Shown here: positions 11,042-42,904 of the stretch, in pieces
Numbering within the stretch: the first letter of the stretch is position 1
Layout: each line of letters opens with the position of its first letter
Assembly (NCBI GenBank): GCA_937123825.1
Contig: CAKZKQ010000402.1
Coordinates: 922 to 64,921 of the forward strand
Direction: 5' to 3'
DNA length: 64,000 nt
Origin: an uncultured Pseudomonadota bacterium
GTDB taxonomy: Bacteria > Myxococcota_A > Bradymonadia > Bradymonadales > GCA-2716585
Made by a program: the position numbers and the translations under genes
The notes under the pieces: generated by a model
Databases searched by the model: none
Told to the model about the DNA's origin: nothing
The model's input: the letters and a program-made list of their open reading frames with translations, nothing else

Positions 11042-11080
11042 GGTTGTCCTCTTGGCTTGTCATGGCAAAGGCATCAAAAG

Positions 11081-19471: not shown

Positions 19472-19538
19472 CACCAACCCTCCACACACCAACACCCGTT
19501 CCTTGCCCGGCCACACCCAACCCACAGGGCCCGCAAAC

Positions 19539-20798
19539 CTATCGCTCCTCCAAACGGAACGAACCATCCTTCAAAAAGAAGAGCACCTTGCCGTTCTTCA
19601 ACACACGGAACCGGCTCACATCCTCCCCACACTCCCCACGCGACACCGCCTTCCACCCATCCTTCTCATGGGCGCTATACAAACCATTGGGACCGCACAT
19701 CCACACCCCCAAAGGCTCATGCGAGAAATGGATCCGGCTCAATCCCAAATTGGGCCTCTTACCCGCTGCCGCAAAGTCAACCACAAACCTTTCCCTATCG
19801 TCTTTCCAATTCCACAACTCCAGCTTATCGCCCTCATTCGACACCAGCCAATCACGATAAAATGTCTCATTAGAATATCTCAGCCCCAACGCTCTCCAAG
19901 TCCCATTCACCAAGTTAAAAACAGAGTACTCTCCAAAAGCGTATTTATCCTCAGTCCGCTGGAAAAAAACAATATGCCCATCATGAAAAGAATATCCCCT
20001 TTTGCCTCCATCAACGCCATAGCACTTTTCAAAATTCAATTCAGCTGCATCAGACACACAGACTTCACCATCACGAACACCCAAAACAGAACCATCCGAA
20101 GCATAGATCAGCTTTAGAAAACCACCGTTAACACCTTTCAAATTTTCAACAACAAGCTCCTCTTCACGAAGACAAACATGCTCAAATCGCCTCGCGAATG
20201 GACTGCTCATAACCACACAATTTTCTTTAGGAGATTGCCGAAAAAATGCAGACAAACCAATCTCGGACTCAAAAACATGAATCAATTTTCCGCTGGATGA
20301 TTCAAAGACACATATTTTACCGTTGTGGTCATACACAAAGATAAACTTACCACTGCCATCTACCCCCACTCCTACAGGCTGTATATTGTGCAACTTCTCA
20401 TTAAGTACACACAAATCAAAAATCACGCTTCCATCTTTAAGGCTCCACAACTTCAAGTGATTTGGATTTCGCTCAGATGAAGACGCATATGTCAGCATCC
20501 ACTTACCACCAGGCTCATAAAACTTTCCAAAATGCGATAGGACTGGATCACCATTGCTGCACAACTTTGCTTTCGAATTATCTATGGGATTTCTCAAGTT
20601 CATTGCCAGACCAGCAATCCCTCCTCTTTTCTTTTTTTTGTACTCACTCAGCGTTTGAGCATCTGAGGCTTTAACTCTTGGCTCATCTTTGGACTCAGCC
20701 TTCACAGGGGTAGGATCGCTTGCCCCCAACGTTGGCAGCGGTGCGCCGCACCCCAACAGAAAGAGACAAGCACCCAACACACACCACATCGCCTTCAT
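19539..20798 (-). CDS. Lipoprotein with beta-propeller-like repeats, encoded in a low-GC island
   Basis: MKAMWCVLGACLFLLGCGAPLP lipobox with GGGAGAAA RBS. The body is rich in K/N/F/Y, with codon use and GC (about 48-50%) very different from the flanking genes at about 70%. Confidence 0.55.
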   Translation of the reverse strand: MKAMWCVLGACLFLLGCGAPLPTLGASDPTPVKAESKDEPRVKASDAQTLSEYKKKKRGGIAGLAMNLRNPIDNSKAKLCSNGDPVLSHFGKFYEPGGKWMLTYASSSERNPNHLKLWSLKDGSVIFDLCVLNEKLHNIQPVGVGVDGSGKFIFVYDHNGKICVFESSSGKLIHVFESEIGLSAFFRQSPKENCVVMSSPFARRFEHVCLREEELVVENLKGVNGGFLKLIYASDGSVLGVRDGEVCVSDAAELNFEKCYGVDGGKRGYSFHDGHIVFFQRTEDKYAFGEYSVFNLVNGTWRALGLRYSNETFYRDWLVSNEGDKLELWNWKDDRERFVVDFAAAGKRPNLGLSRIHFSHEPLGVWMCGPNGLYSAHEKDGWKAVSRGECGEDVSRFRVLKNGKVLFFLKDGSFRLEER

Positions 20799-30402: not shown

Positions 30403-31512
30403 TTGCACCTTGGTTCCCGACACGTTTTACATCATCGCCTTTTCAAGTCGGGGTGCGCGCCCTTGGATGCTCAGAAGAGTACAGCCTCCAGCGAGTTTGA
30501 CCTTTACCTGGCCCAGTGCAGGGATCTTGTCATTGAAGAGATCAAAGACATCGTCCCCGCCGACGAGCGCTACGGTCCGGTGCTCTATGATTTGATGCTC
30601 GAGTACCCGCTGCGCAGAGCCAAGGGCTTTCGCCCGGCGCTGTGCATGGCCACCTGCCGGGCGCTCGGCGGGCATCTGGAGCAGACGCTGCGCACGGCGG
30701 CGGTGCTGGAGATGTACCACAACGCCTTTTTGATCCACGACGACGTGGAGGACGGCTCGCTTAAGCGCCGCGGCGGCCCGACTCTGCACCAGACCTACGG
30801 GGTGCCCATCGCGGTCAACGTCGGCGACGCGATGCTGGCGCTCTCGCTCCAGCCGCTGCTGGACAATATGGCGCTGCTGGGGCTGGGCAAGGCGCTGCGG
30901 ATCTTGCAAATGGTGGCCGAGATGGCCCGCCAGTCGGCCGAAGGCCAGGCGCTGGAGCTTTTCTGGATCCGCCAGGGCCGCTGGGGCCTTGAAGACGACG
31001 ATTACCGCCACCTGGTCCACAAAAAGACCGGCTGGTACACCTTTGTCGCCCCCATCCTCATCGGCGCCATCATCGCCGGGGTCGAAGACGAGCGCCAGGA
31101 GACGCTGCGCCAACTCTGCTGGGACCTAGGGATCGCCTTCCAGATCACCGACGACGTGCTCAACCTGGTGGCCAACGAAAACGCCTACGGCAAAGAGATC
31201 AACGGCGATCTGTGGGAAGGCAAGCACACCCTGATCCTCATGCACGCCATGCGCCAGGCCACCGACGCACAACGCGCCCAGCACGGGGCCACCCTGCGCA
31301 AAGCGCGCCACGAAAAAACCCCGCAAGAGGTCGCCGACCTGCGCGCGCTCATCGACGACAAAGGCTCCATTGGCTACGCGCAAGAAATCGCCGCCGCCCA
31401 CGCCAAGGCCGCCGCCGAGCACCTGCGCGCCACCGCCGACTGGATGCCGCCGTCGATCCACCGCGCCTTCATCCAGGAGTTGGTCCAGCGCGTCACCTCG
31501 CGCCTTGCTTGA
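30403..31512 (+). CDS. Polyprenyl diphosphate synthase (GGPP/FPP synthase family)
   Basis: First DDxxD motif FLIHDDVEDGSLKRRG and second motif FQITDDVLNL, with the KT/GKxxxDLxEGK region. The start is uncertain (TTG at 30403 or an internal site); no in-frame ATG lies near the N-terminus. Confidence 0.75.
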   Translation: MHLGSRHVLHHRLFKSGCAPLDAQKSTASSEFDLYLAQCRDLVIEEIKDIVPADERYGPVLYDLMLEYPLRRAKGFRPALCMATCRALGGHLEQTLRTAAVLEMYHNAFLIHDDVEDGSLKRRGGPTLHQTYGVPIAVNVGDAMLALSLQPLLDNMALLGLGKALRILQMVAEMARQSAEGQALELFWIRQGRWGLEDDDYRHLVHKKTGWYTFVAPILIGAIIAGVEDERQETLRQLCWDLGIAFQITDDVLNLVANENAYGKEINGDLWEGKHTLILMHAMRQATDAQRAQHGATLRKARHEKTPQEVADLRALIDDKGSIGYAQEIAAAHAKAAAEHLRATADWMPPSIHRAFIQELVQRVTSRLA

Positions 31513-31523
31513 GGCCCCGTCCC

Positions 31524-32441
31524 ATGAGCCAAAAAGAAACCATCACCTACGAACTCTACCGCAGCGCCGCGCGACGCCAGGCGGCGCTCCTGCTCAAAGG
31601 AATCCACCACATGAACCACCAATACCCCTGGCCCCACGGCCACTACCCCGGTCAGTACCCCGGCCAATGCCAGCCGCCCAGCGGCGCCGACATGCTCTAC
31701 CAACTCCACCGGGTCCACTTCTACATCCAAAACGAGCTTGCCAAGCTCCTGATGGGCGGCGTGCCCTACTGCCCACCGCAGCCCACACCGCCCGGCTGCG
31801 CACCACCCTGCCCCCCGCCCGCCAACCCCTGCCCTCCGCCCCAGGATCACTGCAGCCCGCCCCACAAACCCCACAAGGGCAGCTTCTGCGTGCACCCCGA
31901 GGTCTGGCTCAAACCGGACCCCAAAGACCCCTGCAAGGCCTGGGGCACCTTTGTGATCGAAAACCGCCGCAACGCCCACATGCGCGCCGACGTCTCGCTC
32001 TCGGCCTTTGAACCCGACGCCGTCCTGGTCACATCCATGGACGCGCGCTGGCAAATCACCCCCACCAGCAACGCCCGCACAGGCAACAGCCTGCAATCGG
32101 GCCAGGGCACCAGCATCCCCATCCCCCCGTGCAGCAGCGCCACCGTCACCTTCAGCATCGACTACAAAGACATCTTCCAGCGCGCCGGTGACTACACCGC
32201 CACCATCCACGTCGCCTCCGAAGGCAAAACGCGCCACTTTGACGTCAAGCTCAAGGTCGACCGCAAATGCCTCTGCGGCCCCAAAGGCACCGCCCCCGAC
32301 AAAGACTGCGCACCCCAAAACAGCCTCGAAGACCGACTCGGCAATCTGGAAGCAAATATGGCGAAGATACTCGCCCTGCTCGACAAGCAAAACGCCTCCG
32401 CTGAAGAAGAGGCCGCCCCAACCCCGACCATCGAGGAGTAA
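31524..32441 (+). CDS. Hypothetical Cys/Pro-rich protein with C-terminal coiled coil
   Basis: MSQKETITYELYRS...CPPQPTPPGCAPPCPPPANPCPPPQDHCSPPHKPHKGSFCVHPEVW...LEDRLGNLEANMAKILALLDK. High GC3. The upstream in-frame extension overlapping the synthase is rejected. Confidence 0.45.
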   Translation: MSQKETITYELYRSAARRQAALLLKGIHHMNHQYPWPHGHYPGQYPGQCQPPSGADMLYQLHRVHFYIQNELAKLLMGGVPYCPPQPTPPGCAPPCPPPANPCPPPQDHCSPPHKPHKGSFCVHPEVWLKPDPKDPCKAWGTFVIENRRNAHMRADVSLSAFEPDAVLVTSMDARWQITPTSNARTGNSLQSGQGTSIPIPPCSSATVTFSIDYKDIFQRAGDYTATIHVASEGKTRHFDVKLKVDRKCLCGPKGTAPDKDCAPQNSLEDRLGNLEANMAKILALLDKQNASAEEEAAPTPTIEE

Positions 32442-32447
32442 GGCCCC

Positions 32448-32903
32448 ATGTCCAACCTCATCCCGCGTCTGGTCTTTGACGAGGACGATCCGCAAGAGGC
32501 CAACGACAGCCCCGAGACACAGCGCGCCCAGGACGAAGCGCAGGTGGGTCAGGCCATCGAGCAGGCCCAGCGCATGCTCATCACCCACCCCATCGCCGCC
32601 CAGGCCATCTTTCGGGCCTTCGTGGCCGAGGGGCGACGCCACGCCCAGACCCCGCAGGGCGCCGCACTCAAGGCCCAGATCGAAGACTCCGAGCTGGTCC
32701 GGCGCGGGCGCGTGGTGTGGGAAGGGGTGACCTTCAACATGCTCGAAGAGGCCCAGCACGCCACCACCTTCCTGCCCTCGGCGCTGCTCGATGCGCTGGT
32801 GGCCGCCACCGCACACGTCGACGTCGATCAACTCCTTGAGCGCCACGCCAACCCCTGGAACCGCCACCATGACCCAACCAAAGCTGATCCATCGTCACGG
32901 TGA
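32448..32903 (+). CDS. Hypothetical protein (151 aa)
   Basis: GGAGTAAGG RBS 5 nt before the ATG. Coding-like GC3. No recognisable domain. Confidence 0.4.
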   Translation: MSNLIPRLVFDEDDPQEANDSPETQRAQDEAQVGQAIEQAQRMLITHPIAAQAIFRAFVAEGRRHAQTPQGAALKAQIEDSELVRRGRVVWEGVTFNMLEEAQHATTFLPSALLDALVAATAHVDVDQLLERHANPWNRHHDPTKADPSSR

Positions 32904-33177
32904 GGCCTTCAACGACCGCAACCACTTCCTCTTTGTGGCCCTGGGCGCCCACGCCATCAACGAGCGCCTCCAGACATTGCTGGACGGCTGCGCGCGGCTT
33001 AAATCGGCCACACCGACCGATCCCGAGCACGACGTGGTCTACTTCCTGCTCGGCCTGTCTGCCTTTGCCAATCAGGCCATGGACCACCTGGACGGCGCTC
33101 GCCAGTCGCCGCGCCAGCAAGACCCCATGGCCTTGACCGGCGACTCTGAGTTGACTGGCCGCCAGATGCTGGAGTGA
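32868..33177 (+). CDS. Hypothetical small protein (103 aa)
   Basis: MTQPKLIHRHGEAFNDRNHFLFVALGAHAINERL... Coding-like codon usage. Overlaps the previous ORF by 36 nt, so one of the two may be mis-called. Confidence 0.3.
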
Positions 33178-33181
33178 GCCT

Positions 33182-34222
33182 GTGGACCTGATCTCGGATG
33201 CCATCGTGCGCGCCGACTACTTTCGGCGCTCCCCCTTTGCCCACGGCGGTCGCGGCGGCCACAAAGAGTGGCTGCATTTCTGTGTGCACGGCCCCCAGGT
33301 GGCCGCCCTGATCAACTTCAGTGTCGTCGATGAGCGCCGCCACCACGGCCCGGTGCCCTGGCAAGAGGCCATGCGCCTGACCGTCCTGACCCACGACGGC
33401 CAGTGGGACGGCGACGTGGAGGTCTTTGACGCCCACGAGGTCCACCTGCCGGGCGGCAAAATCCACGCCCGCTACGGCCCCAACAGCCTGCGCTTCATCG
33501 ACGGGGCCTACCACATCCACGTCGAGATGCAGGACCGCCCCATCACCATGGACTTGCGCCTGCGGCCGCTGAGCATGCCGGGCCGCGCGCCCAACCTGAC
33601 CCGCGAAGACGGGCCGCCGATCCACTGGGTCGTGGTGCCGCGCCTGGAGGCCCACGGGACCATCACCATCGACGGCCGCGTCCATGAGCTGCACTGCGCG
33701 CCCGCCTACCACGATCACAACTGGGGGCACTGGTGCTGGGGCGATGATTTTGCCTGGGAGTGGGGTTTTGGACAGGACGAAGACCCGCAAAACCCCTGGA
33801 ACATGGTCTTTGTGCGGCTGACCAACCGCGCCCGCACGCGGATCATGGCTCAGGCCTTCTCGATCTGGAAGCACGGCCGCCAGATGCGCACCTTCCGGGA
33901 GCAGGAAGTGACCATCTTCCACGAAGGCAAGCACCTGCGCCCTGGGAGCGTCACCAAGATCCCTCGGGTCATGGGTTTGATCGCCCCGGCGCTGCCCACC
34001 GACGTCCCCCATTACCAAAACATCGTCGGCCACAGCGGTCAGGACCGGGTCACGTGCCGGTTTGAAGGCCACGACGTCAGCCAGGTCATCATCCCCAACG
34101 ACAACGACTTCGGCGTCACCATCATCAACGAGGTCAGCGGCGAGCTGTCCATGGAGGGTCAGATCGGCGGTGAGCCCATCAAAATGGCCGGGAGGGCGGT
34201 CTTTGAATTTCTGGGAGCATAG
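33182..34222 (+). CDS. CrtC/AttH-like (hydroxyneurosporene-synthase / lipocalin-like hydratase family) protein
   Basis: 346 aa. HWVVVPRLEAHGTITIDGRVHELHCAPAYHDHNWGHW resembles the aW-DHeW core of the CrtC/AttH family. GGAG RBS before the GTG start. Assignment is from memory of the family motif and is unverified. Confidence 0.5.
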   Translation: MDLISDAIVRADYFRRSPFAHGGRGGHKEWLHFCVHGPQVAALINFSVVDERRHHGPVPWQEAMRLTVLTHDGQWDGDVEVFDAHEVHLPGGKIHARYGPNSLRFIDGAYHIHVEMQDRPITMDLRLRPLSMPGRAPNLTREDGPPIHWVVVPRLEAHGTITIDGRVHELHCAPAYHDHNWGHWCWGDDFAWEWGFGQDEDPQNPWNMVFVRLTNRARTRIMAQAFSIWKHGRQMRTFREQEVTIFHEGKHLRPGSVTKIPRVMGLIAPALPTDVPHYQNIVGHSGQDRVTCRFEGHDVSQVIIPNDNDFGVTIINEVSGELSMEGQIGGEPIKMAGRAVFEFLGA

Positions 34223-34337
34223 CGCCAGCGGCGCCCAAAGAAACCCGGCCACCGGGGATGATTGCCATGACTTCCGGTCATTTTTGAAGCGCTCGCTGCG
34301 CCTGCTGTGGGAGCAGCACCCGCCGTCCTACCAACAA

Positions 34338-34700
34338 ATGGCCCTGGCGCTGGCAGGCAAGCGCGTCTTGATCGAGATCGACCACGAGGCCATCGCGCTG
34401 CGATTTGCCGACGGCACCGTCTACACCGAGGACCCACACGGTCACTTTGATGTCGAGGCGCGCACCAGCAAAGCCGTCATCCTGGGTCTGGTTGATGGCC
34501 AACACACGCTGATGAGCACGGTGCTTGAAGATCTCTTCTTTTTGCGCGGCGCGATGCCCGAGCTGCTGGCCTTTCACGAGGGGCTGACATTCTACCTCCA
34601 GGGCGCCGTGCGCGCGCCGTCATTTCCGGGGCTCTTGCGCCGCTTTCGGGCGCTGGAGCCGTCCCAGACCACCCCAACAACGCACACACAGGTGCGCTGA
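34338..34700 (+). CDS. SCP2-like small protein (sterol/lipid carrier fold)
   Basis: KRVLIEIDHEAIALRFADGTVYTED...AVILGLVDGQHTLMSTVLEDLFFLRGAMPELLAFHEGL fits the SCP2 alternating pattern. The upstream part of the listed ORF from 34062 is S/T/R-rich and non-coding-like. Confidence 0.4.
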   Translation: MALALAGKRVLIEIDHEAIALRFADGTVYTEDPHGHFDVEARTSKAVILGLVDGQHTLMSTVLEDLFFLRGAMPELLAFHEGLTFYLQGAVRAPSFPGLLRRFRALEPSQTTPTTHTQVR

Positions 34701-34720
34701 CCACACCAGGAGCCCACACC

Positions 34721-37700
34721 ATGGCCCACCAGGGAAAGAAAAAGCGGGTGGCGGTCTTTGGCGCCGGGGTCACCGGGCTGACCGTCGCACATGAGCTGGT
34801 CGAACGCGGCTTTGAAGTCCACGTCTACGAAAAAGACCGCGTCATCGGCGGCATGGCCGCCACCCAATACAGTACCCACCCAACCCACGGCTGCGAGCCG
34901 GTCGAGTGCGAGCCATGCCAGGACAAGCACCCTTGTCCGACACACACCATGACGCGCGTCGCGCGCGCTGGTCGCCCCTTGCAGGTCCTGGCCTTCTCGA
35001 CCCCGGAAGAAGCCGGCACGACGCGCAAACCCCACGCCGCCGAGGCCAGCACGCTCCTGGTCGGTGGCAGCGTCGGGATCAGCGTCTGGCGCGTGGACAC
35101 CGGGCGGCGCGTGGCCACCTTTGGCGACCGTGAAGAGATCACCGCTGTGGCCATCGACACCAACGAGCGGTGGATCGCCACCGGCGATCAACGCGGCCAC
35201 GTCAAAATCTGGGACCTGAAGAAGCGCAAGCGCGTCGCCTGCCACAGACCCGAAGGGAACCCTGGGCAGGTCCACAGCGTCGGAATCGCCTTTGACGCCG
35301 ACATCCAAACCATCACCGCCGTGGCCACCTACAGCCAGTGCGAGGTGACCCTTGAGGTCAACCTCCTGGCCATGGTGGACGGCACAGGCTGCGAGCCATC
35401 CCAGGTCCCCGTGGCCCACTGGCAACCCCCTCAGTGCGCCCAGGTTGGCACCGCCTTCGCCTATAAAGACCAAACCTTTGAACTCTGCCCAAAAGACGAC
35501 GACCCAGCGCTTCCTCGCCGCACCTTCGAGATCCCCGAGCTGCCTGACGCCGTCGCCTTCATGGACGTCGCCCCGGATGGACGATTTGTGGCCTTTGGTG
35601 ACCAAGAGGGACACGTCATGGTGGCGCAGATCGACGGGGATGACCTTCGGATTCACCAAGGACCGCTGGAAACCAGTTTGGAGTTGCGCAGCGTCCATCT
35701 CCTTGGCGGCAACAAAGTGGTGCTGCTGCGCTACCAAAGTGGGCTGCTGGAGTGGCGCGACTTTGATGATCTCTCGGTGGTCCTGCAGAGCCGCGACTTG
35801 AGCATCACATCACTCTTCGAAGACTTCCGTCTGCAGCCTGCGTTGATGGACTCAGCGCTCTCGGAAGACGATCGACTCTATGCCGCCGGTTACAGCGACG
35901 GTTCAGTGGCGCTCTGGTCTGTGGAGGGCGAGCAGATCTGGCTCAAGCCGGTGGGAGAAGACAGCGTCCAGCCGCGCGCGCTCCCTGGCATACAAGCGCA
36001 ACAAACCGAGCAAGACACCCTCTTGCTCAGGACGGGGATGGAAGCGGCGTACCACTTCGTGGGCGTCTCCAGCCAGGAGGACAGGCTGCTCTCTGTGATT
36101 TTTGCCACCGATCGACAGGGGCAACTGAACATGCAGGCCAGAGTCTGGGAGGTCAGCACAGGCACACACCAGGCCGAGTTCTCCAACACACTGACCGAAC
36201 TGCTGGCCGAAAACCTCAGCGAGCTGCCATCTTCGTTTGAGCGTGTCAAACTCTCGCTCAGCGGTCGCAGTGGCTCGTTGACCATCGACATGATGTTGCT
36301 CGGAAACGAAAAGTTCCAGCGCCAAACCATTGGGCTGGCCGCAAAAACACGCGCCCAAACCCAGCAACGCCCCGTATTCCAAAACGCCGCCGCGCGACAA
36401 AGCGATTGTGATCCATGCAAGCTCTTGGAGGACCCGTGCCTCCAGACCACAGCGTTGGTGGCCATGGACGACGGCACCACGCTTGTGGGCAGGGTCGACG
36501 GGAGCGTTCGTTGGAGTTTGGGGTCCATGGACGCCCCAACGCTCCCACATGGCACCGTCACCGCCGTCGACGCCATCGCGCACACGCAAAACGGACGCGA
36601 TCTGGTGCAGGTCGCCCTGGGACACGAAGACGGCACGCTCTTGTGGTTGACCTACGAGAAACTCACCAACACACTCAGCGGCAGCGCTCCCCCCAGGCTG
36701 GCCTTGCGCGCTGAGCGCCCCCATCGCCTCCATGATGGCCCCATCACCGCGTTGACCATCATCCGCAACCCCAGCGACTCAAGAAACCCAGTGTATGGCA
36801 TCGTGACGGGAGGCCAGGACAGGCGACTGCGCGGCTTGGATCTGGTCAACAACGCAGCCTTTTCGCTGGCCAGCAACCACGAAGGGCCCATCACCAGCAT
36901 CGTCTACCGCAAGATCCCCATGGTGGCGGCCCGCTCACTGAGCTTCGGCGCGCTCAACTGGCGCTCCTCGTACGAGGTCGCCGTCGGCTCCAGAGACATC
37001 ATCGACCGCGACAACACGGTCAAGCTCTGGGACTTGAGCGACGGCATGGAGATCCTCACCTACGAGCCGCACCCGTGGAAGCCGCTGCCGGGCGAGCACG
37101 GCTTTCGGTTCTTTCCGGCCTTCTACCGGCATGTCTTTGACACCATGGAGCGCACGCGCTTGCGAGCCGACCGCCACCGCACCCAGGCCGACAACATGGT
37201 GGCCACCACCAACCAGGGCATCGCCCTCCAGGACGGCCTGCTCTCCTTTGAGTTCGTGCGCAAGCGCGAACCCTCCGTCGAGGCCACCATCCGCACCGTG
37301 CACCAGGCCATGGCGGGGCTCGGCTACACCTACGGCGACATCGAGCGCTTCAAGGTCAAGACCCTCCAGTTCATGACTGCCTGCTCGGCCAGACGCCAAA
37401 CCTACGAGGAGATCTCCTGGTGGGATTTTGTCGAGGCCGAGCGCTTCAGCCCCCAAACCCAGCAGGCCCTCAACACCGTCCCCAGAGTCCTGGTTGCCAT
37501 GGACGCCATACGCGGCGACGCCCTGACTCAGGGCCTGGTCATGCTCCAACTCTTGATGGACCAGGGCAGCGACGGAGAACACACCGACCGGGTCCTCAAC
37601 GGCCCCTCCTCAGAGGCCTGGTTCAACCACTGGCAGGACTACCTCGAAGACCGAGGCGTGCACTTTCACCTCAACACCGCCATCGAGACCCTCCTGCTCG

Positions 37701-38941
37701 ACAGCAGCCGGGGCGACATCAAAGGGGCCATGGTCCGCCCCCAGCCGCTCATCCCCCAATGCTGCCAGGACCCCAGACCGGCGCACATGGTCCAGGCCGA
37801 CTTCTTTGTCCTGGCCATCCCCATGCGGGCCGCCCAGGCGCTCGTCCGCCGCCTGATCCGTGACCATCAACACCATTGGAGCCCCCCGGCAGGCGGCGAC
37901 CTTGACCAACTCTACCGCTACAACGTGCCCAACTCCGAAGCCTGGATGAGCGGCATCCAATACTACCTGCGCAACGACGTCCCCATCGTCCGTGGCGGTC
38001 ACATCTACTACCCCGACTCGCCGTGGGGCCTCTCATCCGTCTCCCAGGCTCAGTTCTGGGACCGCCAACTGGAGTTGACCTACGGGGTCCGCGGGGTGGT
38101 CTCGGTGGTGGTCGGCGACTGGGAAAAACCGGTGCCGCTCAACCCTCCAGGCGCCGCCACAAAGTGGTGGCATCACAGTCAGGTCCCCGGCAAGACCGCC
38201 CGGCAGTGCACGCCCGATGAGCTGGCCCGCGAGGTCTGGCGTCAGATCAACCTCTCCGCCAACGGCCAGGACCTCATCGAGCGGCGCGAGGTTCGAGGCC
38301 GCACCGACCTGCCCGAACCCCTCTACTACCACCTGGACGACGACCTGAACTTTGACGGCCCGCTGATTGAGACCCGGCGGCGTTACCTCATCTCGCCGGT
38401 TGGCCAGTGGAAGCACCGCCCGGGGCGCCTCAACGCCACAGAAGGCTACGAGCTTCAGACCCACAACCTGGTCCTGGCGGGCAACTTCATGAAGACGTTT
38501 ACGCGACTGACCACCATGGAGTCGGCCAACGAGTCGGGCCGCCACGCCGCCAACGCCATCCTCTCATCGCCCAGGGCGTGTTTTGACGGGGAGCGCTGCG
38601 CGATCTACCCGCTTGAGCGCTGGGAGCCCGCAGACGCCATCGCCGCCAAACGGCTCGACAAGCTCCTCTTTGACGCAGGCCTGCCCCACATGTTCGACAT
38701 CCTGAGACTGATGGACGTTGTCGACACCTGGACCCCCGACCACCCGCGCATGACGTTGACGCGCTTTGCCAACAAACACGCCATGCCACCGACCTTGCGG
38801 AGCCTCTTGTTGCGCTACGCCGAGCGGATCGACGCCTTTTACCGCGAGGTCGAGCTGCGACCGCGCGATGGAGACCTCACCGACCACGCCTCGGCGCTCA
38901 TCTCGCTCATCAACCGCTTTTTGCCGCTGGGTTCAGGCTGA
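34721..38941 (+). CDS. FAD-dependent desaturase / amine-oxidase (PDS/CrtI/HpnE-like) with a WD40 beta-propeller region of roughly 900 aa inserted after the dinucleotide-binding motif
   Basis: N-terminal VAVFGAGVTGLTVAHELVERGFEVHVYEKDRVIGGMAA (Rossmann GxGxxG). WD40 blocks (GHVKIWDL, DGSVALWSV, DNTVKLWDLSDG). Then EHGFRFFPAFY (compare EHGLHIFFGAY of PDS/ZDS), and C-terminal ESANESGRHAANAIL. AGGAG RBS. Confidence 0.85.
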   Translation: MAHQGKKKRVAVFGAGVTGLTVAHELVERGFEVHVYEKDRVIGGMAATQYSTHPTHGCEPVECEPCQDKHPCPTHTMTRVARAGRPLQVLAFSTPEEAGTTRKPHAAEASTLLVGGSVGISVWRVDTGRRVATFGDREEITAVAIDTNERWIATGDQRGHVKIWDLKKRKRVACHRPEGNPGQVHSVGIAFDADIQTITAVATYSQCEVTLEVNLLAMVDGTGCEPSQVPVAHWQPPQCAQVGTAFAYKDQTFELCPKDDDPALPRRTFEIPELPDAVAFMDVAPDGRFVAFGDQEGHVMVAQIDGDDLRIHQGPLETSLELRSVHLLGGNKVVLLRYQSGLLEWRDFDDLSVVLQSRDLSITSLFEDFRLQPALMDSALSEDDRLYAAGYSDGSVALWSVEGEQIWLKPVGEDSVQPRALPGIQAQQTEQDTLLLRTGMEAAYHFVGVSSQEDRLLSVIFATDRQGQLNMQARVWEVSTGTHQAEFSNTLTELLAENLSELPSSFERVKLSLSGRSGSLTIDMMLLGNEKFQRQTIGLAAKTRAQTQQRPVFQNAAARQSDCDPCKLLEDPCLQTTALVAMDDGTTLVGRVDGSVRWSLGSMDAPTLPHGTVTAVDAIAHTQNGRDLVQVALGHEDGTLLWLTYEKLTNTLSGSAPPRLALRAERPHRLHDGPITALTIIRNPSDSRNPVYGIVTGGQDRRLRGLDLVNNAAFSLASNHEGPITSIVYRKIPMVAARSLSFGALNWRSSYEVAVGSRDIIDRDNTVKLWDLSDGMEILTYEPHPWKPLPGEHGFRFFPAFYRHVFDTMERTRLRADRHRTQADNMVATTNQGIALQDGLLSFEFVRKREPSVEATIRTVHQAMAGLGYTYGDIERFKVKTLQFMTACSARRQTYEEISWWDFVEAERFSPQTQQALNTVPRVLVAMDAIRGDALTQGLVMLQLLMDQGSDGEHTDRVLNGPSSEAWFNHWQDYLEDRGVHFHLNTAIETLLLDSSRGDIKGAMVRPQPLIPQCCQDPRPAHMVQADFFVLAIPMRAAQALVRRLIRDHQHHWSPPAGGDLDQLYRYNVPNSEAWMSGIQYYLRNDVPIVRGGHIYYPDSPWGLSSVSQAQFWDRQLELTYGVRGVVSVVVGDWEKPVPLNPPGAATKWWHHSQVPGKTARQCTPDELAREVWRQINLSANGQDLIERREVRGRTDLPEPLYYHLDDDLNFDGPLIETRRRYLISPVGQWKHRPGRLNATEGYELQTHNLVLAGNFMKTFTRLTTMESANESGRHAANAILSSPRACFDGERCAIYPLERWEPADAIAAKRLDKLLFDAGLPHMFDILRLMDVVDTWTPDHPRMTLTRFANKHAMPPTLRSLLLRYAERIDAFYREVELRPRDGDLTDHASALISLINRFLPLGSG

Positions 38942-41900
38942 GTCGCCGTCGTAAAGCGGCATAAAGACCGCCGCCATCTTGTCGGGCGCGGCGATCTCCT
39001 GCTGGCGCATCCAGGTTCGGGCCTGCGCCGCCATCTCGCGCCCTGCCCCATCGCCTTGGAGTTGACCCAACCACAAACGCCCCGAGGCCGCGTGCAGGTG
39101 CATGTCCAGGGCCTCAAAACCCTCAATGGCCTCGCGCAGACAGGATTGTGTGGCCTGGAGGTCACCGCCCAGACACTGCACCGAGGCTTCGAGCGCCGCC
39201 CCCAACGGCATGGACCAGTCGCTGGGCTCTTTGCGCAGGCGCGCGGCCGCTCGACGCGCAGCACGCGTCATCGACGCACGGCTCTTGGACTCAGCGTGGG
39301 CAACAGCAGCGCAAAGGCGGCCGTGGAGTTCGATCAGTTCGGCGCGCGGGCTCTCCAACTGCATGAAACCCGCGCGGCGCAGCTTTGGCATCCTGCTTTG
39401 ACACAACTCCAGCGCTTGCGGCGCCGAACCACGCACATAGAGTGATGCCTGGGCCACAGCGAGCAGGTGTAGGTAGTGGGCGAGACTGGTGTCTTTGAGC
39501 GTCCAGCGCTCTAGGGCCTGATTGGCTTGGTCCAGGGCTTTTTGGGGCTCGTCGCTGGCCAACCAGATGGCGTTGGGCACTCCCAGCGGCAAGCCCAGTT
39601 CGGTCATCAGGTCGCCGCGTTCTCTGGCGTCGTTGAGCAAACCGGGCATGCGCCGGGCCACGTCTCCAAGGCGGCCCTGACGAGTGAGGGTCGCGTTGAT
39701 GAAGCTCTCACAACTGGCGATCTCCCAGGAGACCCCGTGGCACTCTTTGCGGAAGGTGTCGATGGCCTTTTGCACAAAGGCTTCGCTGCGCGTCCACTGG
39801 GTCCACATGTAGGCCACCGTGCCTGTGGCCATGTCTGTCCAGGCCCGGTCGTAGGGCTTGCCAGTTTGGGCGGCCAGCGTCCGGGCCTGCTCCAACAGCG
39901 CCTCGGCTTTGTCCTTGCGCGCGCCGCTGCCCTGGGTGGCCAGGAAGTGGGCCTCAAAGGCCAGCCCGCGCACCAACCTTGAGGGCTCCCCCAGATCGAG
40001 CGCCTCGCGCAGGTGCAAGACCGCCAGCGCGTGACCAAGCAAGGGGTCGATGGTGGAAAAGCTTGAAGAAGCGCTCCAGCAGGCGTCCAGACGTGCCAGT
40101 TTATCGGGCTCAACCGCCTCAACCTGACGCAACTCGTACTTCAAACCACGGACCTTGAGGCGCGTGCGTTGGTAGAGCACCGCCGCCAGGGTCGAGGCAG
40201 CGCTGGACGGCATCGAAATGCCCACCGCAGCGAGCGCCTGACGCATCAATCTGGCACCGCGCTCCACATGACCGGCGCGCAAATACTGCTCGGCGGCGCG
40301 CCCCACCAGCCCCTGACGCCAACCCTCGGCTCCGTCCGGGGCGCACTCCAGTGCTTCTTCATACATCTTGGCCGCCTCAAACCCTCGTCCGGCCGACGCC
40401 AACACATCTCCAAGCGCCTCAAGCAGTTCATGACGGGGGGCTGGCAACGTTTCAAAGGCCAAAGCCCGGCGATAAAAGGCCGCCGCTTGCTCAAAGGCCA
40501 ACGTCGCGCGGGCCTTGGTGGCGGCCTTCAGCGCCCATCCAGCAGCCTTCTGGAGGTTTCCGCAAGCCTCAAAATGGTGCAAGAGCGCGTGGGGCTCGGT
40601 GTCGGGCCGATCCACCAACGCCATCGCCAGTTGCGTGTGCCTGGAGACCGTATTTGTGTGGGGCGAGTGGCGTGCAAGCGCCTCACCTATCTTGTCGTGG
40701 TAGACATGCAGGCGCTCTTGTGGGCCTTGACCGCTGGTGCGCAGCAAGGAGAGCTTGCGCAGCCGCCCCACATCAAGCATGTCGATCAAACCATCCTGGC
40801 CAAAGCCCTTGAGGACGTCGCGCGGCAAGGGCTGGACGGCAAAGGCCACCAGCTCCATCAGCGCACGCGCGCTGGGCCCCAAACACGCCAGCCGGTCGAG
40901 GATGAGCGCGTCAAGAGAGTGGTCGGCTGGGCGCTCATCGGCCACCGAGGACACCCCAAGGGCCCGGTTCTGGACCAACTCGCGGATCCAGAACGGGCTG
41001 CCCTCGGCCTCCATCAAGAGCGTCTGGAGATCTTGATGGGCGTCGAGCTTGAGCGCCTCAAAGAGGTTTCGGGCAAGCTGCACGCTCAACTCGGCGGGCA
41101 GCGGCTCCAACTCAAGCTCCAGACAACGCGCCGGTGGCAGAACCGGCGAGGGGGGATCCAAGAGCGCCTGGAGCATGGCGCTTTGCTGGCGGTCTTCGCT
41201 GCGAAAAGACAAGAGCCACAGACAAGACAGCGCCGAGCCCGGCAAAAAGAGCTCGCGCATGATCCGCGCGCTGTCCATGTCCCCCCATTGGAGGTCGTCG
41301 ATCCACAAAATCAGGCGCCGCTGCGCGCACACGCACGCCATCAAGCGGCGCAGCGCCGTGGCCGCCCGACGCTGAAGGTCTTGTGGACGCTGAGACTCAA
41401 GCCATGCCTGTCCATCGAGCGCTTCGAAGGCTGGCACGGTGTCCATCACCGGAAACACACACGTCAGCGCGGCGATCCCTTCGGGCCCCACCGCCTCCAC
41501 CGCGCGCCGGGCCAGCGTTTTTTGCCCCAAAAGCGTCGCCAACCCGTCCAGCACCCCGTCCAGCGCCTTAAAGGGCATCATTTCCTGGGGATGGCAGCGG
41601 CTTCGGAGGATGGTCACGGTGTCGTCACTGCGATGCTGGCGCAAAAATTCGCGCACCAACTCGCTCTTGCCAAGCCCCGAGCGCCCCTGCACGCAGACCA
41701 CCGCCTGCTCACCCTGACGACAGCCCTCAAACGCCTTGGCGAGCACCCCCAACTCGCGCTCGCGGCCCACAAACGGGGCCTGCTGAATGACGGGAAAGAG
41801 GCCCGAGGTCAGACGCGCTGCGCTGCGCGCCAAAGGGGCTTGAAGTGGCCCCAGCGTTTGTTCATCGACCCACCGCAGCACCTCGTCTCTTCCCGCGCGC

Positions 41901-42904
41901 TCATTGGGGTCGATGCGCAGCAAATCCATCACAAGCTGCGCCAACGACTGCGGCAGCTCAGGACAAAGGGTCTGCACCGGCACTGGCTTCATGGTTGAAC
42001 GCGTGAGCATCAACTGCAACGGCGGACCGCTGACGGGCAGCCGCCCGGTCAACGCCTCATAGAGCAGCACCCCCACGCTGAACCAGTCCGACGCCGGCGT
42101 CAGCGCCACCTGCGAGGCCTGCTCTGGGGACATGTAGGCCGGCGTGCCCGCAATGGACTGCCAACGCTCATCGCCCTTGCCCTCGGCGTCGCTGAAAAAC
42201 TCCACCAGACCAAAGTCCAGCACCACCAGGCGCCCCTGGCGATCCACCAGAATGTTGGACGGTTTCAAGTCCCGGTGCAGCCGACCCGCGTCGTGCAACA
42301 CCGACAACCCCGACACAAGCTGGCGCAGGACAGACCCCACGCGCCCCATCAAAGCGTCATCAAACGCCATGGAGGGCCAACTTCCCGCTTGAATGGCACC
42401 GTCGGGCGGCCCAGGCAGGGTTGGCTGCGGCACCCAACCCGGCAAAGGGTAGCGCGCTGTGGACTGGGAACGCTGCTGGCTGTGGGGATCGGCGGTTTCA
42501 TCCAGACCGGACGCACCCGAGTTGTCCACGGTCGTGGCGGTGGTGTCGAGCGCTTCGTCCCCCGCGCTGGTCTGCTCACCGCGCAACCATGAACGAACGT
42601 TAACACCATCAACCAGCTCCATCGTAAAGAACTGATCCCGGCCATCGACCACCAGATCATAAAACTCCAGCAGGTTCCGATGGGTGATGTCCTGGAGCGA
42701 ACGAAACTCCCGCTTGAGCATCTGGGCGCTGGTGGGCTCGCGCCTCAAACGCTTGAGCGCCAACCACTTCGACGTCTCCAGATCATAGACCCTGTAAACC
42801 TCGCCCATGGCCCCGGAACCCAACCTCTGGGCCCGGCTATAACGCTCATCAAAGAGTGACGGCTTCATCCACCTCCGGCTGGTGTCGATGGGTTTGATGA
42901 ACAC
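38933..42904 (-). CDS. Ser/Thr protein kinase fused to an AAA/STAND ATPase and TPR repeats (1323 aa)
   Basis: LGSGAMGEVYRV, ALK, HRDLKPSNILV, DFG, SPEQ. P-loop VVCVQGRSGLGKSELV. Long C-terminal TPR/alpha-solenoid. Convergent 9-bp overlap with the desaturase gene. Confidence 0.85.
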   Translation of the reverse strand: MFIKPIDTSRRWMKPSLFDERYSRAQRLGSGAMGEVYRVYDLETSKWLALKRLRREPTSAQMLKREFRSLQDITHRNLLEFYDLVVDGRDQFFTMELVDGVNVRSWLRGEQTSAGDEALDTTATTVDNSGASGLDETADPHSQQRSQSTARYPLPGWVPQPTLPGPPDGAIQAGSWPSMAFDDALMGRVGSVLRQLVSGLSVLHDAGRLHRDLKPSNILVDRQGRLVVLDFGLVEFFSDAEGKGDERWQSIAGTPAYMSPEQASQVALTPASDWFSVGVLLYEALTGRLPVSGPPLQLMLTRSTMKPVPVQTLCPELPQSLAQLVMDLLRIDPNERAGRDEVLRWVDEQTLGPLQAPLARSAARLTSGLFPVIQQAPFVGRERELGVLAKAFEGCRQGEQAVVCVQGRSGLGKSELVREFLRQHRSDDTVTILRSRCHPQEMMPFKALDGVLDGLATLLGQKTLARRAVEAVGPEGIAALTCVFPVMDTVPAFEALDGQAWLESQRPQDLQRRAATALRRLMACVCAQRRLILWIDDLQWGDMDSARIMRELFLPGSALSCLWLLSFRSEDRQQSAMLQALLDPPSPVLPPARCLELELEPLPAELSVQLARNLFEALKLDAHQDLQTLLMEAEGSPFWIRELVQNRALGVSSVADERPADHSLDALILDRLACLGPSARALMELVAFAVQPLPRDVLKGFGQDGLIDMLDVGRLRKLSLLRTSGQGPQERLHVYHDKIGEALARHSPHTNTVSRHTQLAMALVDRPDTEPHALLHHFEACGNLQKAAGWALKAATKARATLAFEQAAAFYRRALAFETLPAPRHELLEALGDVLASAGRGFEAAKMYEEALECAPDGAEGWRQGLVGRAAEQYLRAGHVERGARLMRQALAAVGISMPSSAASTLAAVLYQRTRLKVRGLKYELRQVEAVEPDKLARLDACWSASSSFSTIDPLLGHALAVLHLREALDLGEPSRLVRGLAFEAHFLATQGSGARKDKAEALLEQARTLAAQTGKPYDRAWTDMATGTVAYMWTQWTRSEAFVQKAIDTFRKECHGVSWEIASCESFINATLTRQGRLGDVARRMPGLLNDARERGDLMTELGLPLGVPNAIWLASDEPQKALDQANQALERWTLKDTSLAHYLHLLAVAQASLYVRGSAPQALELCQSRMPKLRRAGFMQLESPRAELIELHGRLCAAVAHAESKSRASMTRAARRAAARLRKEPSDWSMPLGAALEASVQCLGGDLQATQSCLREAIEGFEALDMHLHAASGRLWLGQLQGDGAGREMAAQARTWMRQQEIAAPDKMAAVFMPLYDGDSA

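What the first reader, a model, noticed from the sequence alone, without database searches (positions are those of the whole stretch)
34721..38941. Carotenoid-desaturase/amine-oxidase family flavoenzyme split by a WD40 beta-propeller insertion of roughly 900 aa
The N-terminal 50 aa form a textbook FAD-binding Rossmann motif (VAVFGAGVTGLTVAHELVERGFEVHVYEKDRVIGG). The C-terminal 450 aa or so carry the PDS/ZDS/CrtI/HpnE-type signature EHGFRFFPAFY and the terminal GRHAANAIL. Between them lie multiple WD40 repeats (GHVKIWDL, DGSVALWSV, DNTVKLWDL), giving a 1406-aa protein. Inserting a WD40 propeller into a flavin desaturase is an architecture I do not recognise. It would tether a protein-interaction platform to a lipid or terpenoid oxidoreductase, or it is a remarkable gene fusion.
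Basis: partly seen in the sequence, partly recalled or inferred. Interest (0 to 1): 0.7.

Follow-up and report, generated by a model that had tools for sequence, protein, structure and literature searches.

The report
Flavoenzyme split by WD40-like insert
A real, conserved bacterial gene encodes a phytoene-desaturase-like flavin enzyme whose FAD domain is interrupted, at a surface loop that hosts different inserted modules in its relatives, by a roughly 730-residue beta-rich WD40-like module; it sits in a conserved, uncharacterised isoprenoid-type operon.

Summary

Only one WD40 repeat passes Pfam's threshold, with four partial signatures. The AlphaFold model of the insert is poor (pLDDT 37), so a tandem WD40-like propeller is likely but not shown.

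It is not an artefact. A 1386-aa ortholog (41% identical; core 62%, insert 31%, collinear) occurs on 9 contigs, at least four from separate assemblies, in the same operon.

The family has more than 2100 members, mostly in Myxococcota-like bacteria. All vary at this one loop: no insert, an OmpA-like domain (the most common), 320-420-aa modules, or this one.

The operon is polyprenyl diphosphate synthase, three unknown proteins, a tocopherol-cyclase/CrtC-like protein, an SCP2-like protein and the flavoenzyme, with a convergent Ser/Thr kinase downstream.

Most likely it is an isoprenoid redox enzyme carrying a swappable docking module. I rate it a new variant of a known kind, of moderate interest.

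The parts
34708..34712 (+). Shine-Dalgarno-like AGGAG, 8 nt upstream of the ATG
   Evidence: Sequence read.
34721..34876 (+). aa 1-52: N-terminal half of the FAD domain, i.e. the Rossmann beta-alpha-beta (GAGVTG, E37, GG43-44), up to GGMAATQYST
   Evidence: NAD_binding_8 3.8e-9 and Amino_oxidase profile positions 2-35. Strand 9-13, helix 17-28 and strand 32-37 in the AF2 model, with pLDDT 96-98 for residues 11-40.
34877..37078 (+). aa 53-786: the inserted module of about 730 aa, beta-rich and WD40-like
   Evidence: Absent from 35 minimal family members, and placed at the common insertion point. Collinear with the ortholog P0145 over aa 59-732 of the insert (E 3e-27; 31% identity). The AF2 secondary structure has about 45 strands and 4 short helices, but the model has low confidence.
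34889..34936 (+). aa 57-72: Cys-rich linker (GCEPVECEPCQDKHPC) at the N-terminal junction. Three Cys are conserved in the ortholog.
   Evidence: Alignment A4: invariant G5, C6, P8, C11, P13 and C14 in insert numbering.
35099..35218 (+). aa 127-166: the one canonical WD40 repeat (ends ...GHVKIWDL)
   Evidence: Pfam WD40 40.1 bits against a cut-off of 27. A home-made WD40 repeat HMM scores it 50.8 bits, E 7e-18. Nearly all similarity to generic WD40 proteins maps to aa 105-195.
37004..37078 (+). aa 762-786: last WD-like strand and C-terminal junction (DRDNTVKLWDLSDGMEILTYEPHPW), highly conserved in the ortholog
37079..38620 (+). aa 787-1300: the rest of the flavoenzyme. It runs from LPGEHGFRFFPAFY through the substrate domain to the C-terminal FAD motif TTMESANESGRHAANAIL.
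   Evidence: About 40% identity to insertion-less relatives, with all 52 invariant family residues kept. Best matches are PDS 5MOG. 62% identical to P0145.
38621..38941 (+). aa 1301-1406 plus the stop codon: C-terminal helical tail, shared by the family and not matched to PDS
   Evidence: Helices 574-668 of the spliced model at lower pLDDT. The family consensus extends through it. 40% identical to P0145.
30403..31512 (+). First operon gene: short-chain polyprenyl diphosphate synthase (369 aa)
   Evidence: Pfam polyprenyl_synt 6e-61. The NCBIfam GGPP/IdsA-type models score 163-178 bits, all below their cut-offs. Conserved in the same position in L001, L002, L005, L006, L063 and L085.
31524..32441 (+). 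u1: 305-aa protein with a Cys/Pro/His-rich low-complexity stretch and a beta-rich C-terminal part. Function unknown.
   Evidence: No Pfam or PDB match. 36% identical to the L085 counterpart.
32448..32903 (+). u2: small conserved protein of unknown function, with no Pfam, NCBIfam or PDB match
   Evidence: Conserved in 7 loci. No PDB match.
32791..33177 (+). u3: small conserved protein of unknown function. The true start is probably the internal ATG near 32869.
33182..34222 (+). u4: 346-aa tocopherol-cyclase / CrtC(AttH)-like protein with an invariant YHDHNxG motif. In P0010 it is fused to the N-terminus of the flavoenzyme.
   Evidence: Pfam Tocopherol_cycl hits 7 of 8 family members below threshold (best 2.9e-4). 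The profile's best PDB hit is the CrtC-domain protein 7A0Q (E 0.012). Fusion shown by tblastn.
34062..34700 (+). u5: SCP2-like small protein. The conserved part starts near 34260. The ORF overlaps u4 in another frame.
   Evidence: Pfam SCP2 hits 3 of 6 members (best 1.5e-4). Conserved directly upstream of the flavoenzyme in L005, L006, L012, L063 and L085.
38933..42904 (-). Convergent Ser/Thr kinase with an AAA_16 domain (1323 aa). Its 3' end overlaps the flavoenzyme gene's 3' end by 9 nt.
   Evidence: Pkinase 3.5e-42 and AAA_16 3e-18. The same convergent neighbour is present in L001, L004, L006, L017, L025, L028, L032, L082 and L085. A large kinase lies directly upstream in 12 further loci.

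Best explanation
One real gene encodes an FAD-dependent oxidoreductase of a large, uncharacterised family whose nearest characterised relatives are plant/cyanobacterial-type phytoene desaturase and HpnE.

Shown:
- The FAD domain is assembled from aa 1-52 and aa 787 onward.
- The two pieces are separated by a roughly 730-aa module inserted into the loop that follows the GG motif, between GGMA.TQ and LPGEHGFRFFP.
- This loop is a family-wide slot. Relatives have no insert, an OmpA-like domain, or unrelated modules of 320-420 aa there.
- The catalytic core keeps every residue that is invariant in the family.

Inferred:
- The insert is a strongly diverged tandem WD40-type beta-propeller. Its two ends return to the same loop.
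- It leaves catalysis intact and serves as a docking or localisation platform that ties the enzyme to partners. Candidates are the other operon products, or the Ser/Thr kinase/AAA_16 protein encoded next to it.
- The enzyme acts on an isoprenoid chain (desaturation, saturation or isomerisation). The substrate would derive from the polyprenyl diphosphate made by the first operon gene, together with the tocopherol-cyclase/CrtC-like protein and the SCP2-like lipid carrier.
For: Split core:
- Pfam Amino_oxidase covers profile positions 2-261 only when the insert is removed.
- The joined core is about 40% identical to 43 insertion-less homologs and keeps all 52 invariant columns.
- AF2 of the joined core gives pTM 0.86.

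Insertion slot:
- The distance from GxGxxG to GEHGFRFFP is 55 aa or less in 35 proteins, 56-100 aa in 10, 170-300 aa in 74 (55 of these with an OmpA-like motif), 301-450 aa in 6, and 777 aa here.
- The flanking anchors are identical in all of them.

Reality and conservation:
- Ortholog P0145 is collinear over the whole insert.
- It lies on 9 contigs plus an identical ORF on a metagenome contig.
- The operon is the same.
- The off-frame stop density (26-30 per 1406 codons) makes 734 open codons by chance about 1e-7.

WD40 nature:
- One repeat passes threshold and four are partial.
- 8961 WD40-type proteins hit at E<=1e-3.
- The predicted secondary structure is nearly all beta.
- The Foldseek top 50 are double-propeller WD40 proteins.

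Isoprenoid context:
- The same gene order recurs in 8 loci: window, L001, L002/L003, L005, L006, L012 (partial), L063 and L085.
- A polyprenyl synthase lies within the fetched flank (10 kb at most) in 15 of 84 family loci.
- u4 is fused to the flavoenzyme in P0010.
- u4 is tocopherol-cyclase/CrtC-like and u5 is SCP2-like.

Kinase link: a large Ser/Thr kinase is adjacent in 20 of 84 loci, in two different arrangements.
Against: - The propeller fold is not demonstrated. The AF2 model of the insert has pLDDT 37 and pTM 0.29. The Foldseek matches have TM-scores of only 0.10-0.19.
- Only aa 105-195 resemble WD40 proteins at significant levels.
- The insert is the least conserved protein segment of the locus apart from u1: 31% identity against 62% for the core. 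This fits weak constraint.
- No partner, substrate or product is known.
- The assignments of u4 and u5 rest on hits below threshold.
- No phytoene or squalene synthase and no prenyltransferase is present in the window, so the pathway is incomplete as read.
- Kinase adjacency could be shared ancestry of gene order within Myxococcota.
Confidence: 0.6

Rival explanations
1. The propeller is a gate or substrate filter over the active site, not a docking platform. This is how prolyl oligopeptidase-family enzymes work: a beta-propeller inserted between the two parts of the catalytic domain covers the active site.
For: The overall layout is the same: a short N-terminal piece of the catalytic domain, then the propeller, then the rest of the domain (the oligopeptidase layout is from established knowledge). 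The insert is retained over a long divergence.
Against: The insertion point is the loop directly after the GG motif of the FAD-binding Rossmann element. Relatives carry no insert, an OmpA-like domain or unrelated modules there, which is hard to reconcile with a conserved gating role. The insert evolves twice as fast as the core. The geometry could not be tested because no full-length model could be built.
Confidence: 0.12
2. The insert is a tolerated, largely functionless expansion of a permissive surface loop: a decaying WD40 segment kept only because it does not harm the enzyme.
For: Only one blade is canonical. Identity to the ortholog is 31% against 62% for the core. GC3 is slightly lower than in the core. 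The loop clearly tolerates anything from 0 to 730 aa.
Against: Both lineages keep 700-730 codons open and collinear, with conserved blocks such as GGSVGxSxWRxDTG, IDGDD, GHEDGT, EGPIT and LWDLxDxxExxxYEPHPW. A neutral 2.2-kb segment would be expected to acquire stops (about 2% per codon in the other frames) or to be deleted.
Confidence: 0.15
3. The enzyme is not an isoprenoid enzyme. It is an amine or amino-acid oxidase, or another flavoprotein, and the neighbouring polyprenyl synthase is coincidental.
For: Pfam names the family Amino_oxidase. The next-best structural matches are amine, amino-acid and nicotine oxidases. No named desaturase model passes its cut-off.
Against: PDS is clearly the best hit by three methods. 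The top NCBIfam hits are HpnE, ZDS and CrtD. A polyprenyl synthase is present in 15 of 84 loci in two different operon types. The flavoenzyme is fused to a tocopherol-cyclase/CrtC-like protein. The gene just upstream is SCP2-like.
Confidence: 0.1
4. Assembly or annotation artefact: a frameshift or chimera joins a WD40 gene to a flavoenzyme gene. Alternatively, the insert is an intein or a mobile element.
For: The exact protein is known from only 2 contigs. The insert has no close homolog in the word-indexed search.
Against: Both flavoenzyme halves flank the insert in one frame. Ortholog P0145 has the same architecture on 9 contigs, at least four from separate assemblies. The junctions fall exactly at the family's insertion slot. 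There are no Hint or endonuclease domains. The junctions lack intein residues: they read YST|HPTHGC and EPHPW|KPLPGEHG.
Confidence: 0.02

Closest known systems
Plant/cyanobacterial-type phytoene desaturase PDS (rice PDS, PDB 5MOG)
   Different: Only 14-16% identical. The PDS equivalog model is far below its cut-off (36.6 against 569 bits for the minimal homolog P0037; not among the 25 best hits shown for the window protein). There is no phytoene synthase in the operon. This protein has a 110-aa helical tail and about 46 extra core residues. PDS has a short hairpin where this protein has 730 aa.
Hydroxysqualene dehydroxylase HpnE (TIGR03467)
   Same: Top-scoring NCBIfam model for this protein (45.9 bits) and for the minimal family member P0037 (86.7 bits, 3 stretches). 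It is also an FAD enzyme that does redox chemistry on an isoprenoid.
   Different: The cut-off of 283 bits is not met. No HpnC/HpnD (SQS_PSY) genes are nearby.
OmpA-insert and other insert-bearing members of the same family (e.g. P0030, P0090, P0018)
   Same: Same core at 34-41% identity, same insertion point, and in several cases the same operon and the same convergent kinase.
   Different: Their inserts are 115-350 aa and unrelated in sequence. They are OmpA-like PF00691, or unassigned. The insert of P0018, the closest relative after the ortholog P0145, shows only a non-significant hint in the first blade (E 0.09).
LSD1/KDM1A amine-oxidase domain with the inserted Tower domain
   Different: The Tower is a coiled coil of about 100 aa inserted at a different place in the fold, in a eukaryotic chromatin enzyme. 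This is a functional analogy only.
Prolyl oligopeptidase / DPP-IV family (beta-propeller inserted within the catalytic domain)
   Same: The layout is a short N-terminal catalytic segment, then a propeller, then the rest of the catalytic domain (established knowledge).
   Different: It has an alpha/beta-hydrolase fold, not a flavoenzyme fold, and a single non-WD40 propeller that gates the active site. No homology.
CrtC/CrtD pair of acyclic carotenoid tailoring, and tocopherol cyclase
   Same: An AttH/CrtC/tocopherol-cyclase-like protein (u4) is paired with, and in P0010 fused to, a CrtD/PDS-like flavoenzyme next to a polyprenyl synthase.
   Different: All matches are below the curated thresholds. 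CrtB and CrtI are absent. The product is unknown.

Membership tests
Flavin amine-oxidase superfamily (Pfam PF01593 Amino_oxidase, two-dinucleotide-binding-domain flavoproteins) | N-terminal beta-alpha-beta with GxGxxG and an acidic residue at the end of strand 2 | tested here: met
   GAGVTG at aa 14-19 and E37. NAD_binding_8 scores 3.8e-9. The AF2 model has strand-helix-strand at pLDDT 96-98.
Flavin amine-oxidase superfamily (Pfam PF01593 Amino_oxidase, two-dinucleotide-binding-domain flavoproteins) | Score above the Pfam gathering threshold, with coverage of both the FAD and the substrate domain | tested here: met
   32.6 bits against 19.8 for the native protein, covering the N-terminus only. 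46.5 bits over profile positions 2-261 for the joined core. The C-terminal stretch matches positions 337-443 at 17.2 bits.
Flavin amine-oxidase superfamily (Pfam PF01593 Amino_oxidase, two-dinucleotide-binding-domain flavoproteins) | C-terminal FAD-contacting motif before the last helix | tested here: met
   TTMESANESGRHAANAIL aligns to LASMEGAVLSGKLCAQSV of PDS. It is invariant or nearly invariant in the family.
Flavin amine-oxidase superfamily (Pfam PF01593 Amino_oxidase, two-dinucleotide-binding-domain flavoproteins) | Bound FAD and redox activity | not testable with these tools
   Requires purified protein.
Named isoprenoid desaturases/oxidoreductases (PDS TIGR02731, ZDS TIGR02732, CrtD TIGR02733/NF045637, CrtI family TIGR02734, HpnE TIGR03467) | Score at or above the curated equivalog cut-off | tested here: not met
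   HpnE 45.9 against 283. ZDS 32.8 against 622. CrtD 24.4 against 550. For the minimal homolog P0037: HpnE 86.7, PDS 36.6 against 569, crtI_fam 29.2 against 238.
Named isoprenoid desaturases/oxidoreductases (PDS TIGR02731, ZDS TIGR02732, CrtD TIGR02733/NF045637, CrtI family TIGR02734, HpnE TIGR03467) | Genomic association with a phytoene or squalene synthase (SQS_PSY) | tested here: not met
   No SQS_PSY hit in any scanned ORF of the window or in the called genes of L001, L002, L004 and L085.
Named isoprenoid desaturases/oxidoreductases (PDS TIGR02731, ZDS TIGR02732, CrtD TIGR02733/NF045637, CrtI family TIGR02734, HpnE TIGR03467) | PDS-type fold as the closest solved structure | tested here: met
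WD40 repeat beta-propeller | At least one repeat above the Pfam WD40 gathering threshold | tested here: met
   aa 130-165, 40.1 bits against 27. 50.8 bits with a repeat HMM built from 84 repeats.
WD40 repeat beta-propeller | Six to eight blades per propeller closing into a ring | tested here: inconclusive
   Only four further partial signatures were found, at aa 179-194, 283-300, 379-400 and 762-772. Internal repeats are weak (P 0.005-0.06). The AF2 model is all-beta but has pLDDT 37. The Foldseek top hits are double propellers at TM 0.10-0.19.
Family 2 encapsulin system with polyprenyl transferase cargo | An encapsulin (HK97-fold, Linocin_M18-like) shell gene in the operon | tested here: not met
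   tblastn of the shell-like protein of L053 against the window finds nothing. No Linocin_M18 hit in the scanned ORFs. A shell-like gene is present only in a different operon type of the family.
Family 2 encapsulin system with polyprenyl transferase cargo | Polyprenyl synthase scoring above the NF041169 cut-off | tested here: not met
   178.4 bits against 450.
Intein / mobile insertion | Hint or homing-endonuclease domains, and Cys/Ser ... His-Asn-Cys/Ser/Thr junction residues | tested here: not met
   No such Pfam hits. The junction sequences were read.

The most novel reading that the evidence does not exclude
The flavoenzyme family uses one surface loop as a plug-in socket for targeting modules: OmpA-like, unknown alpha/beta modules, and propellers. 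In this lineage the socket holds a tandem WD40-type propeller. That propeller would physically couple a new isoprenoid-lipid pathway (polyprenyl synthase, tocopherol-cyclase/CrtC-like protein, SCP2 carrier, PDS-like oxidoreductase, three unknown proteins) to the adjacent Ser/Thr kinase/AAA_16 signalling protein. On this reading the locus makes, or senses, a lipid signal under kinase control, an arrangement with no described precedent in bacteria.
Probability: 0.12. Interest if true: 0.8.

Novelty: new variant of a known kind. Interest (0 to 1): 0.55.

Why it matters
The finding does three things.

First, it gives a clean natural example of large-domain insertion into a flavoenzyme. A 730-aa module sits in the FAD domain of an otherwise intact enzyme, at a loop that evolution has reused for unrelated modules. 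That loop is a candidate permissive site for engineering PDS-like enzymes, and a handle on how such enzymes are localised.

Second, it flags a large family (more than 2100 proteins, mainly Myxococcota but also Streptomyces, Paenibacillus, Bacteroidota and haloarchaea) that automatic annotation calls '15-cis-phytoene desaturase' or 'OmpA family protein'. It passes no curated model for either.

Third, it defines a conserved seven-gene operon with three proteins of entirely unknown kind. That operon is a concrete target for discovering a new bacterial terpenoid.

Tried and rejected
- Word-indexed homolog searches with the full protein and with the insert found no ortholog. Only the exhaustive HMMER search found P0145.
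- A look-up of the window protein's own contig failed: the protein is not on record. The cluster look-ups gave no names or accessions.
- AF2 of the insert with a 2-sequence alignment gave an unusable model (pLDDT 37). Its Foldseek matches are reported only as local-pattern evidence.
- The metagenome scan with insert-derived patterns returned only the already known ortholog (L088 is identical to P0145) plus generic WD40 genes.
- P0018's shorter insert could not be shown to be homologous (E 0.09; phmmer E 0.33).
- Profiles of u1 and u2 found nothing in the PDB. The u5 profile found nothing there either.
- The encapsulin idea was tested for this window and rejected.
- The AFDB fold library was unavailable.
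- Literature searches for a described family, for WD40 insertion in flavoproteins, or for this operon found nothing relevant.
- No paralogous WD40 donor was found in the window.
- The lower GC3 of the insert was considered as a sign of foreign origin. I rejected that, because the ortholog shows the same small dip.

Full report
**1. The observation**

The window holds a single open frame at 34721..38941 (+) of 1406 codons, starting at ATG. An AGGAG sequence lies 8 nt upstream of the start.

Codon-position GC keeps the coding pattern along the whole frame, with GC3 between 0.71 and 0.93. The two other frames carry 26 and 30 stops, and the window has no ambiguous bases.

The sizes need correcting:
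- N-terminal enzyme piece: aa 1-52.
- Insert: about aa 53-786, roughly 730 aa rather than 900.
- C-terminal piece: aa 787-1406, roughly 620 aa rather than 450.

**2. The two flanks are one enzyme**

On the native protein, Pfam Amino_oxidase matches only aa 18-51. When 1-52 is joined to 785-1406, the match extends over profile positions 2-261 (4e-12). The C-terminal piece alone matches positions 337-443.

The joined sequence aligns at about 40% identity with 43 relatives that have no insert. It carries all 52 residues that are invariant in that alignment. AlphaFold2 folds it with pTM 0.86 and mean pLDDT 80. Confidence dips only around the artificial junction.

The nearest solved structure is rice phytoene desaturase 5MOG by three methods:
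- Sequence profile: 5e-13, with three collinear stretches that include the C-terminal FAD motif.
- Foldseek: 1e-17, TM 0.75 on the target.

The best NCBIfam models are HpnE, ZDS and CrtD, but all fall far below their cut-offs. The core is therefore a PDS/HpnE-like flavoenzyme that belongs to no named equivalog. Public annotations of relatives such as '15-cis-phytoene desaturase' or 'OmpA family protein' are not supported by the curated models.

**3. The insertion site is a family-wide slot**

The C-terminal piece finds more than 2100 relatives. The genome scan places them mainly in Myxococcota MAGs and isolates: Kofleriaceae, Polyangiaceae and Labilithrix. They also occur in Streptomyces, Paenibacillus, Bacteroidota and haloarchaea.

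I measured the distance from GxGxxG to GEHGFRFFP in 126 of these proteins:

| Distance | Proteins | Note |
|---|---|---|
| 55 aa or less | 35 | minimal form |
| 56-100 aa | 10 | |
| 170-300 aa | 74 | 55 carry an OmpA-like motif, and many have PF00691 |
| 301-450 aa | 6 | |
| 777 aa | 1 | this protein |

The anchors on both sides are the same in all of them: GG[MK]A.TQ on the left and LPGEHG[FY]RFFP on the right. From my own recollection of PDS sequences, this is the short hairpin between GGK and ETGLHIFFGAY. I did not verify that mapping on coordinates.

**4. What the insert is**

Only one WD40 repeat is canonical: aa 127-166, at 40 bits against Pfam's 27. It scores 51 bits with a repeat HMM that I built from 84 repeats of the WD40 hits. 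That HMM also finds partial signatures at aa 179-194, 283-300, 379-400 and 762-772.

Nearly all similarity to generic WD40 proteins maps to aa 105-195. Profile self-comparison shows weak internal repeats spread across the insert. The exhaustive HMMER search gave 8961 hits at E<=1e-3. Apart from the query itself and P0145, the listed hits match the query region carrying the canonical repeat in many short stretches, as multi-repeat WD40 proteins do.

AlphaFold2 on the insert, with only two sequences in the alignment, failed: pLDDT 37 and pTM 0.29. Its secondary structure is almost all beta, with about 45 strands. Foldseek with this poor model returns only tandem double-propeller WD40 proteins in the top 50, at E 1e-14 to 1e-10. 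These are UTP/PWP2 proteins of the SSU processome, EML-like axonemal proteins, Apaf-1 and IFT-A. The TM-scores are only 0.10-0.19, so this shows local pattern, not global fold.

My reading is a strongly diverged tandem WD40-type propeller with about 0.7 confidence in the fold. The number of blades is unknown.

A Cys-rich linker (aa 57-72) at the N junction has three Cys conserved in the ortholog. There is no transmembrane segment.

**5. It is real and conserved**

The exhaustive search found P0145, a 1386-aa protein that matches insert residues 59-732 in one collinear stretch (E 3e-27). BLASTP over the full length gives 41% identity. By region:

| Region | Identity |
|---|---|
| N piece | 62% |
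| Insert | 31% |
| Core | 62% |
| Tail | 40% |

P0145 lies on 9 contigs, with ENA and Logan samples among the places shown. An identical ORF sits on a further metagenome contig. Its gene order is the same: polyprenyl synthase, 326 aa, 218 aa, 106 aa, 363 aa, 157 aa, the flavoenzyme, then a convergent kinase.

This rules out a chimera or frameshift. With about 2% stops per codon in the other frames, 734 open codons by chance is about 1e-7. The insert is therefore at least selected to be translated.

An intein or a mobile element is excluded by the junction residues and the lack of the relevant domains.

**6. Context**

The genes upstream on the same strand are tightly packed, with gaps of 4-20 nt or overlaps:

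| Gene | Coordinates | Assignment | Evidence |
|---|---|---|---|
| polyprenyl synthase | 30403-31512 | short-chain polyprenyl diphosphate synthase | 6e-61, |
| u1 | 31524-32441 | Cys/Pro/His-rich, beta-rich C-terminal part, unknown | |
| u2 | 32448-32903 | small protein, unknown | |
| u3 | 32791-33177 | small protein, unknown | |
| u4 | 33182-34222 | tocopherol-cyclase/CrtC-like | |
| u5 | conserved part from about 34260 to 34700 | SCP2-like | |

For u4, Pfam Tocopherol_cycl hits 7 of 8 family members below threshold. The profile's best PDB hit is the CrtC-domain protein 7A0Q at E 0.012. The YHDHNxG motif is invariant. For u5, Pfam SCP2 hits 3 of 6 members, with a best E of 1.5e-4.

The same order recurs in L001, L002/L003, L005, L006, L012 (partial), L063 and L085. 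In P0010 the u4-like protein is fused to the N-terminus of the flavoenzyme, which ties the two together functionally.

A polyprenyl synthase lies within the fetched flank (10 kb at most) in 15 of 84 family loci, including a second operon type. The window has no phytoene or squalene synthase and no encapsulin shell gene.

Downstream, a 1323-aa Ser/Thr kinase with an AAA_16 domain converges on the flavoenzyme gene and overlaps it by 9 nt. A large kinase sits directly next to the flavoenzyme in 20 of 84 loci, in two arrangements: 8 convergent downstream and 12 upstream on the same strand. It is also adjacent in L085.

**7. Mechanism**

Shown:
- A complete PDS-like FAD enzyme is interrupted at a permissive loop.
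- The loop carries alternative modules in relatives.
- The gene belongs to a conserved operon with a polyprenyl synthase.

Inferred:
- The enzyme does redox chemistry on an isoprenoid chain. The chain would be supplied by the synthase, handled by the SCP2-like carrier and modified by the cyclase/hydratase-like protein.
- The inserted propeller does not take part in catalysis. It docks the enzyme to partners or to a location. The fact that unrelated modules can be swapped into the slot argues for this reading and against an active-site gate.

The higher rate of change of the insert fits a peripheral scaffold, but it also fits weak constraint. I therefore keep 'tolerated expansion' as a serious rival.

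**8. Comparison and verdict**

The closest known relatives are PDS (fold and best hit) and HpnE (best curated model, cut-off not met). Functional analogies are LSD1, whose amine-oxidase domain is interrupted by the CoREST-binding Tower, and prolyl oligopeptidases, whose catalytic domain is interrupted by a propeller. Both analogies rest on established knowledge, not on tests made here.

I found no paper describing this family, the insertion slot or the operon.

I rate it a new variant of a known kind. The flavoenzyme fold, WD40 repeats and domain insertion are all familiar, but the combination, the swappable slot and the operon are not described. Interest is moderate (0.55). The finding is solid and specific and opens a testable pathway, but the function and the propeller fold remain inferred.

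Noticed in passing
window 59679..62204 (-): An 841-aa ORF hits Pfam MVP_shoulder (1.6e-22) and the Vault_3 repeat (1.6e-9), so it is a bacterial homolog of the eukaryotic major vault protein.
   Followed up: no
L053 7606-8517 and 9072-9965; also L041, L055, L059, L062, L065, L069, L076, L083: In a second operon type of the same flavoenzyme family, the gene is preceded by a Linocin_M18/encapsulin-like shell protein and a DUF3237 protein and followed by a polyprenyl synthase. This may be an encapsulin-associated terpenoid system outside Actinobacteria. The window has no shell gene.
   Followed up: partly
window 38933..42904 (-) and 20 of 84 family loci: A large Ser/Thr kinase with an AAA_16 domain lies directly next to the flavoenzyme gene in two different arrangements: convergent downstream in 8 loci, and upstream on the same strand in 12. 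This may be a functional link or shared myxobacterial gene order.
   Followed up: partly
window 33182..34222 and 34062..34700; L001 8730-9989; L004 10001-13480: u4 (tocopherol-cyclase/CrtC-like) and u5 (SCP2-like) overlap in different frames here. In L001 they are called as one 419-aa ORF. In P0010 a u4-like domain is fused to the N-terminus of the flavoenzyme.
   Followed up: partly
window 31524..32441 (u1) and 34889..34936 (insert linker): u1 has a Cys/Pro/His-rich low-complexity stretch (CPPPQPTPPGCAPPCPPPANPCPPP; His- and CPPP-rich in the L085 ortholog). The N-terminal linker of the insert has a conserved Cys cluster (CEPVECEPC). This may be metal binding or disulfides; it is unexplained.
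   Followed up: no
window 34877..37078: GC3 of the insert (0.79) is lower than that of the enzyme core (0.87). The ortholog shows a smaller dip (0.93 against 0.96). This reads as weaker codon constraint rather than foreign origin.
   Followed up: yes
window 18001..20000, ORF 18329..19567 (-): The region has unusual composition: GC 0.59 against 0.65, and GC skew -0.36. The 412-aa ORF has a weak beta-propeller (THOC3) hit at 9e-6. It is not similar to the insert.
   Followed up: no
window 13816..14757 (-) and 10943..11875 (+): There are two eukaryote-like genes: a PRMT-type arginine methyltransferase with the PRMT_C oligomerisation subdomain, and a Tpt1/KptA RNA 2'-phosphotransferase. The window also has the vault protein homolog, MopE motifs and several large kinases. 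Together these point to a Myxococcota-like genome.
   Followed up: no
P0018 / L005 10001-12775: The closest relative after the ortholog P0145 (core 41% identical) has a 324-aa insert at the same site, with W/G-rich beta-like repeats. Only a non-significant hint links it to the first blade of this insert (E 0.09). It may be a shorter or older propeller.
   Followed up: partly
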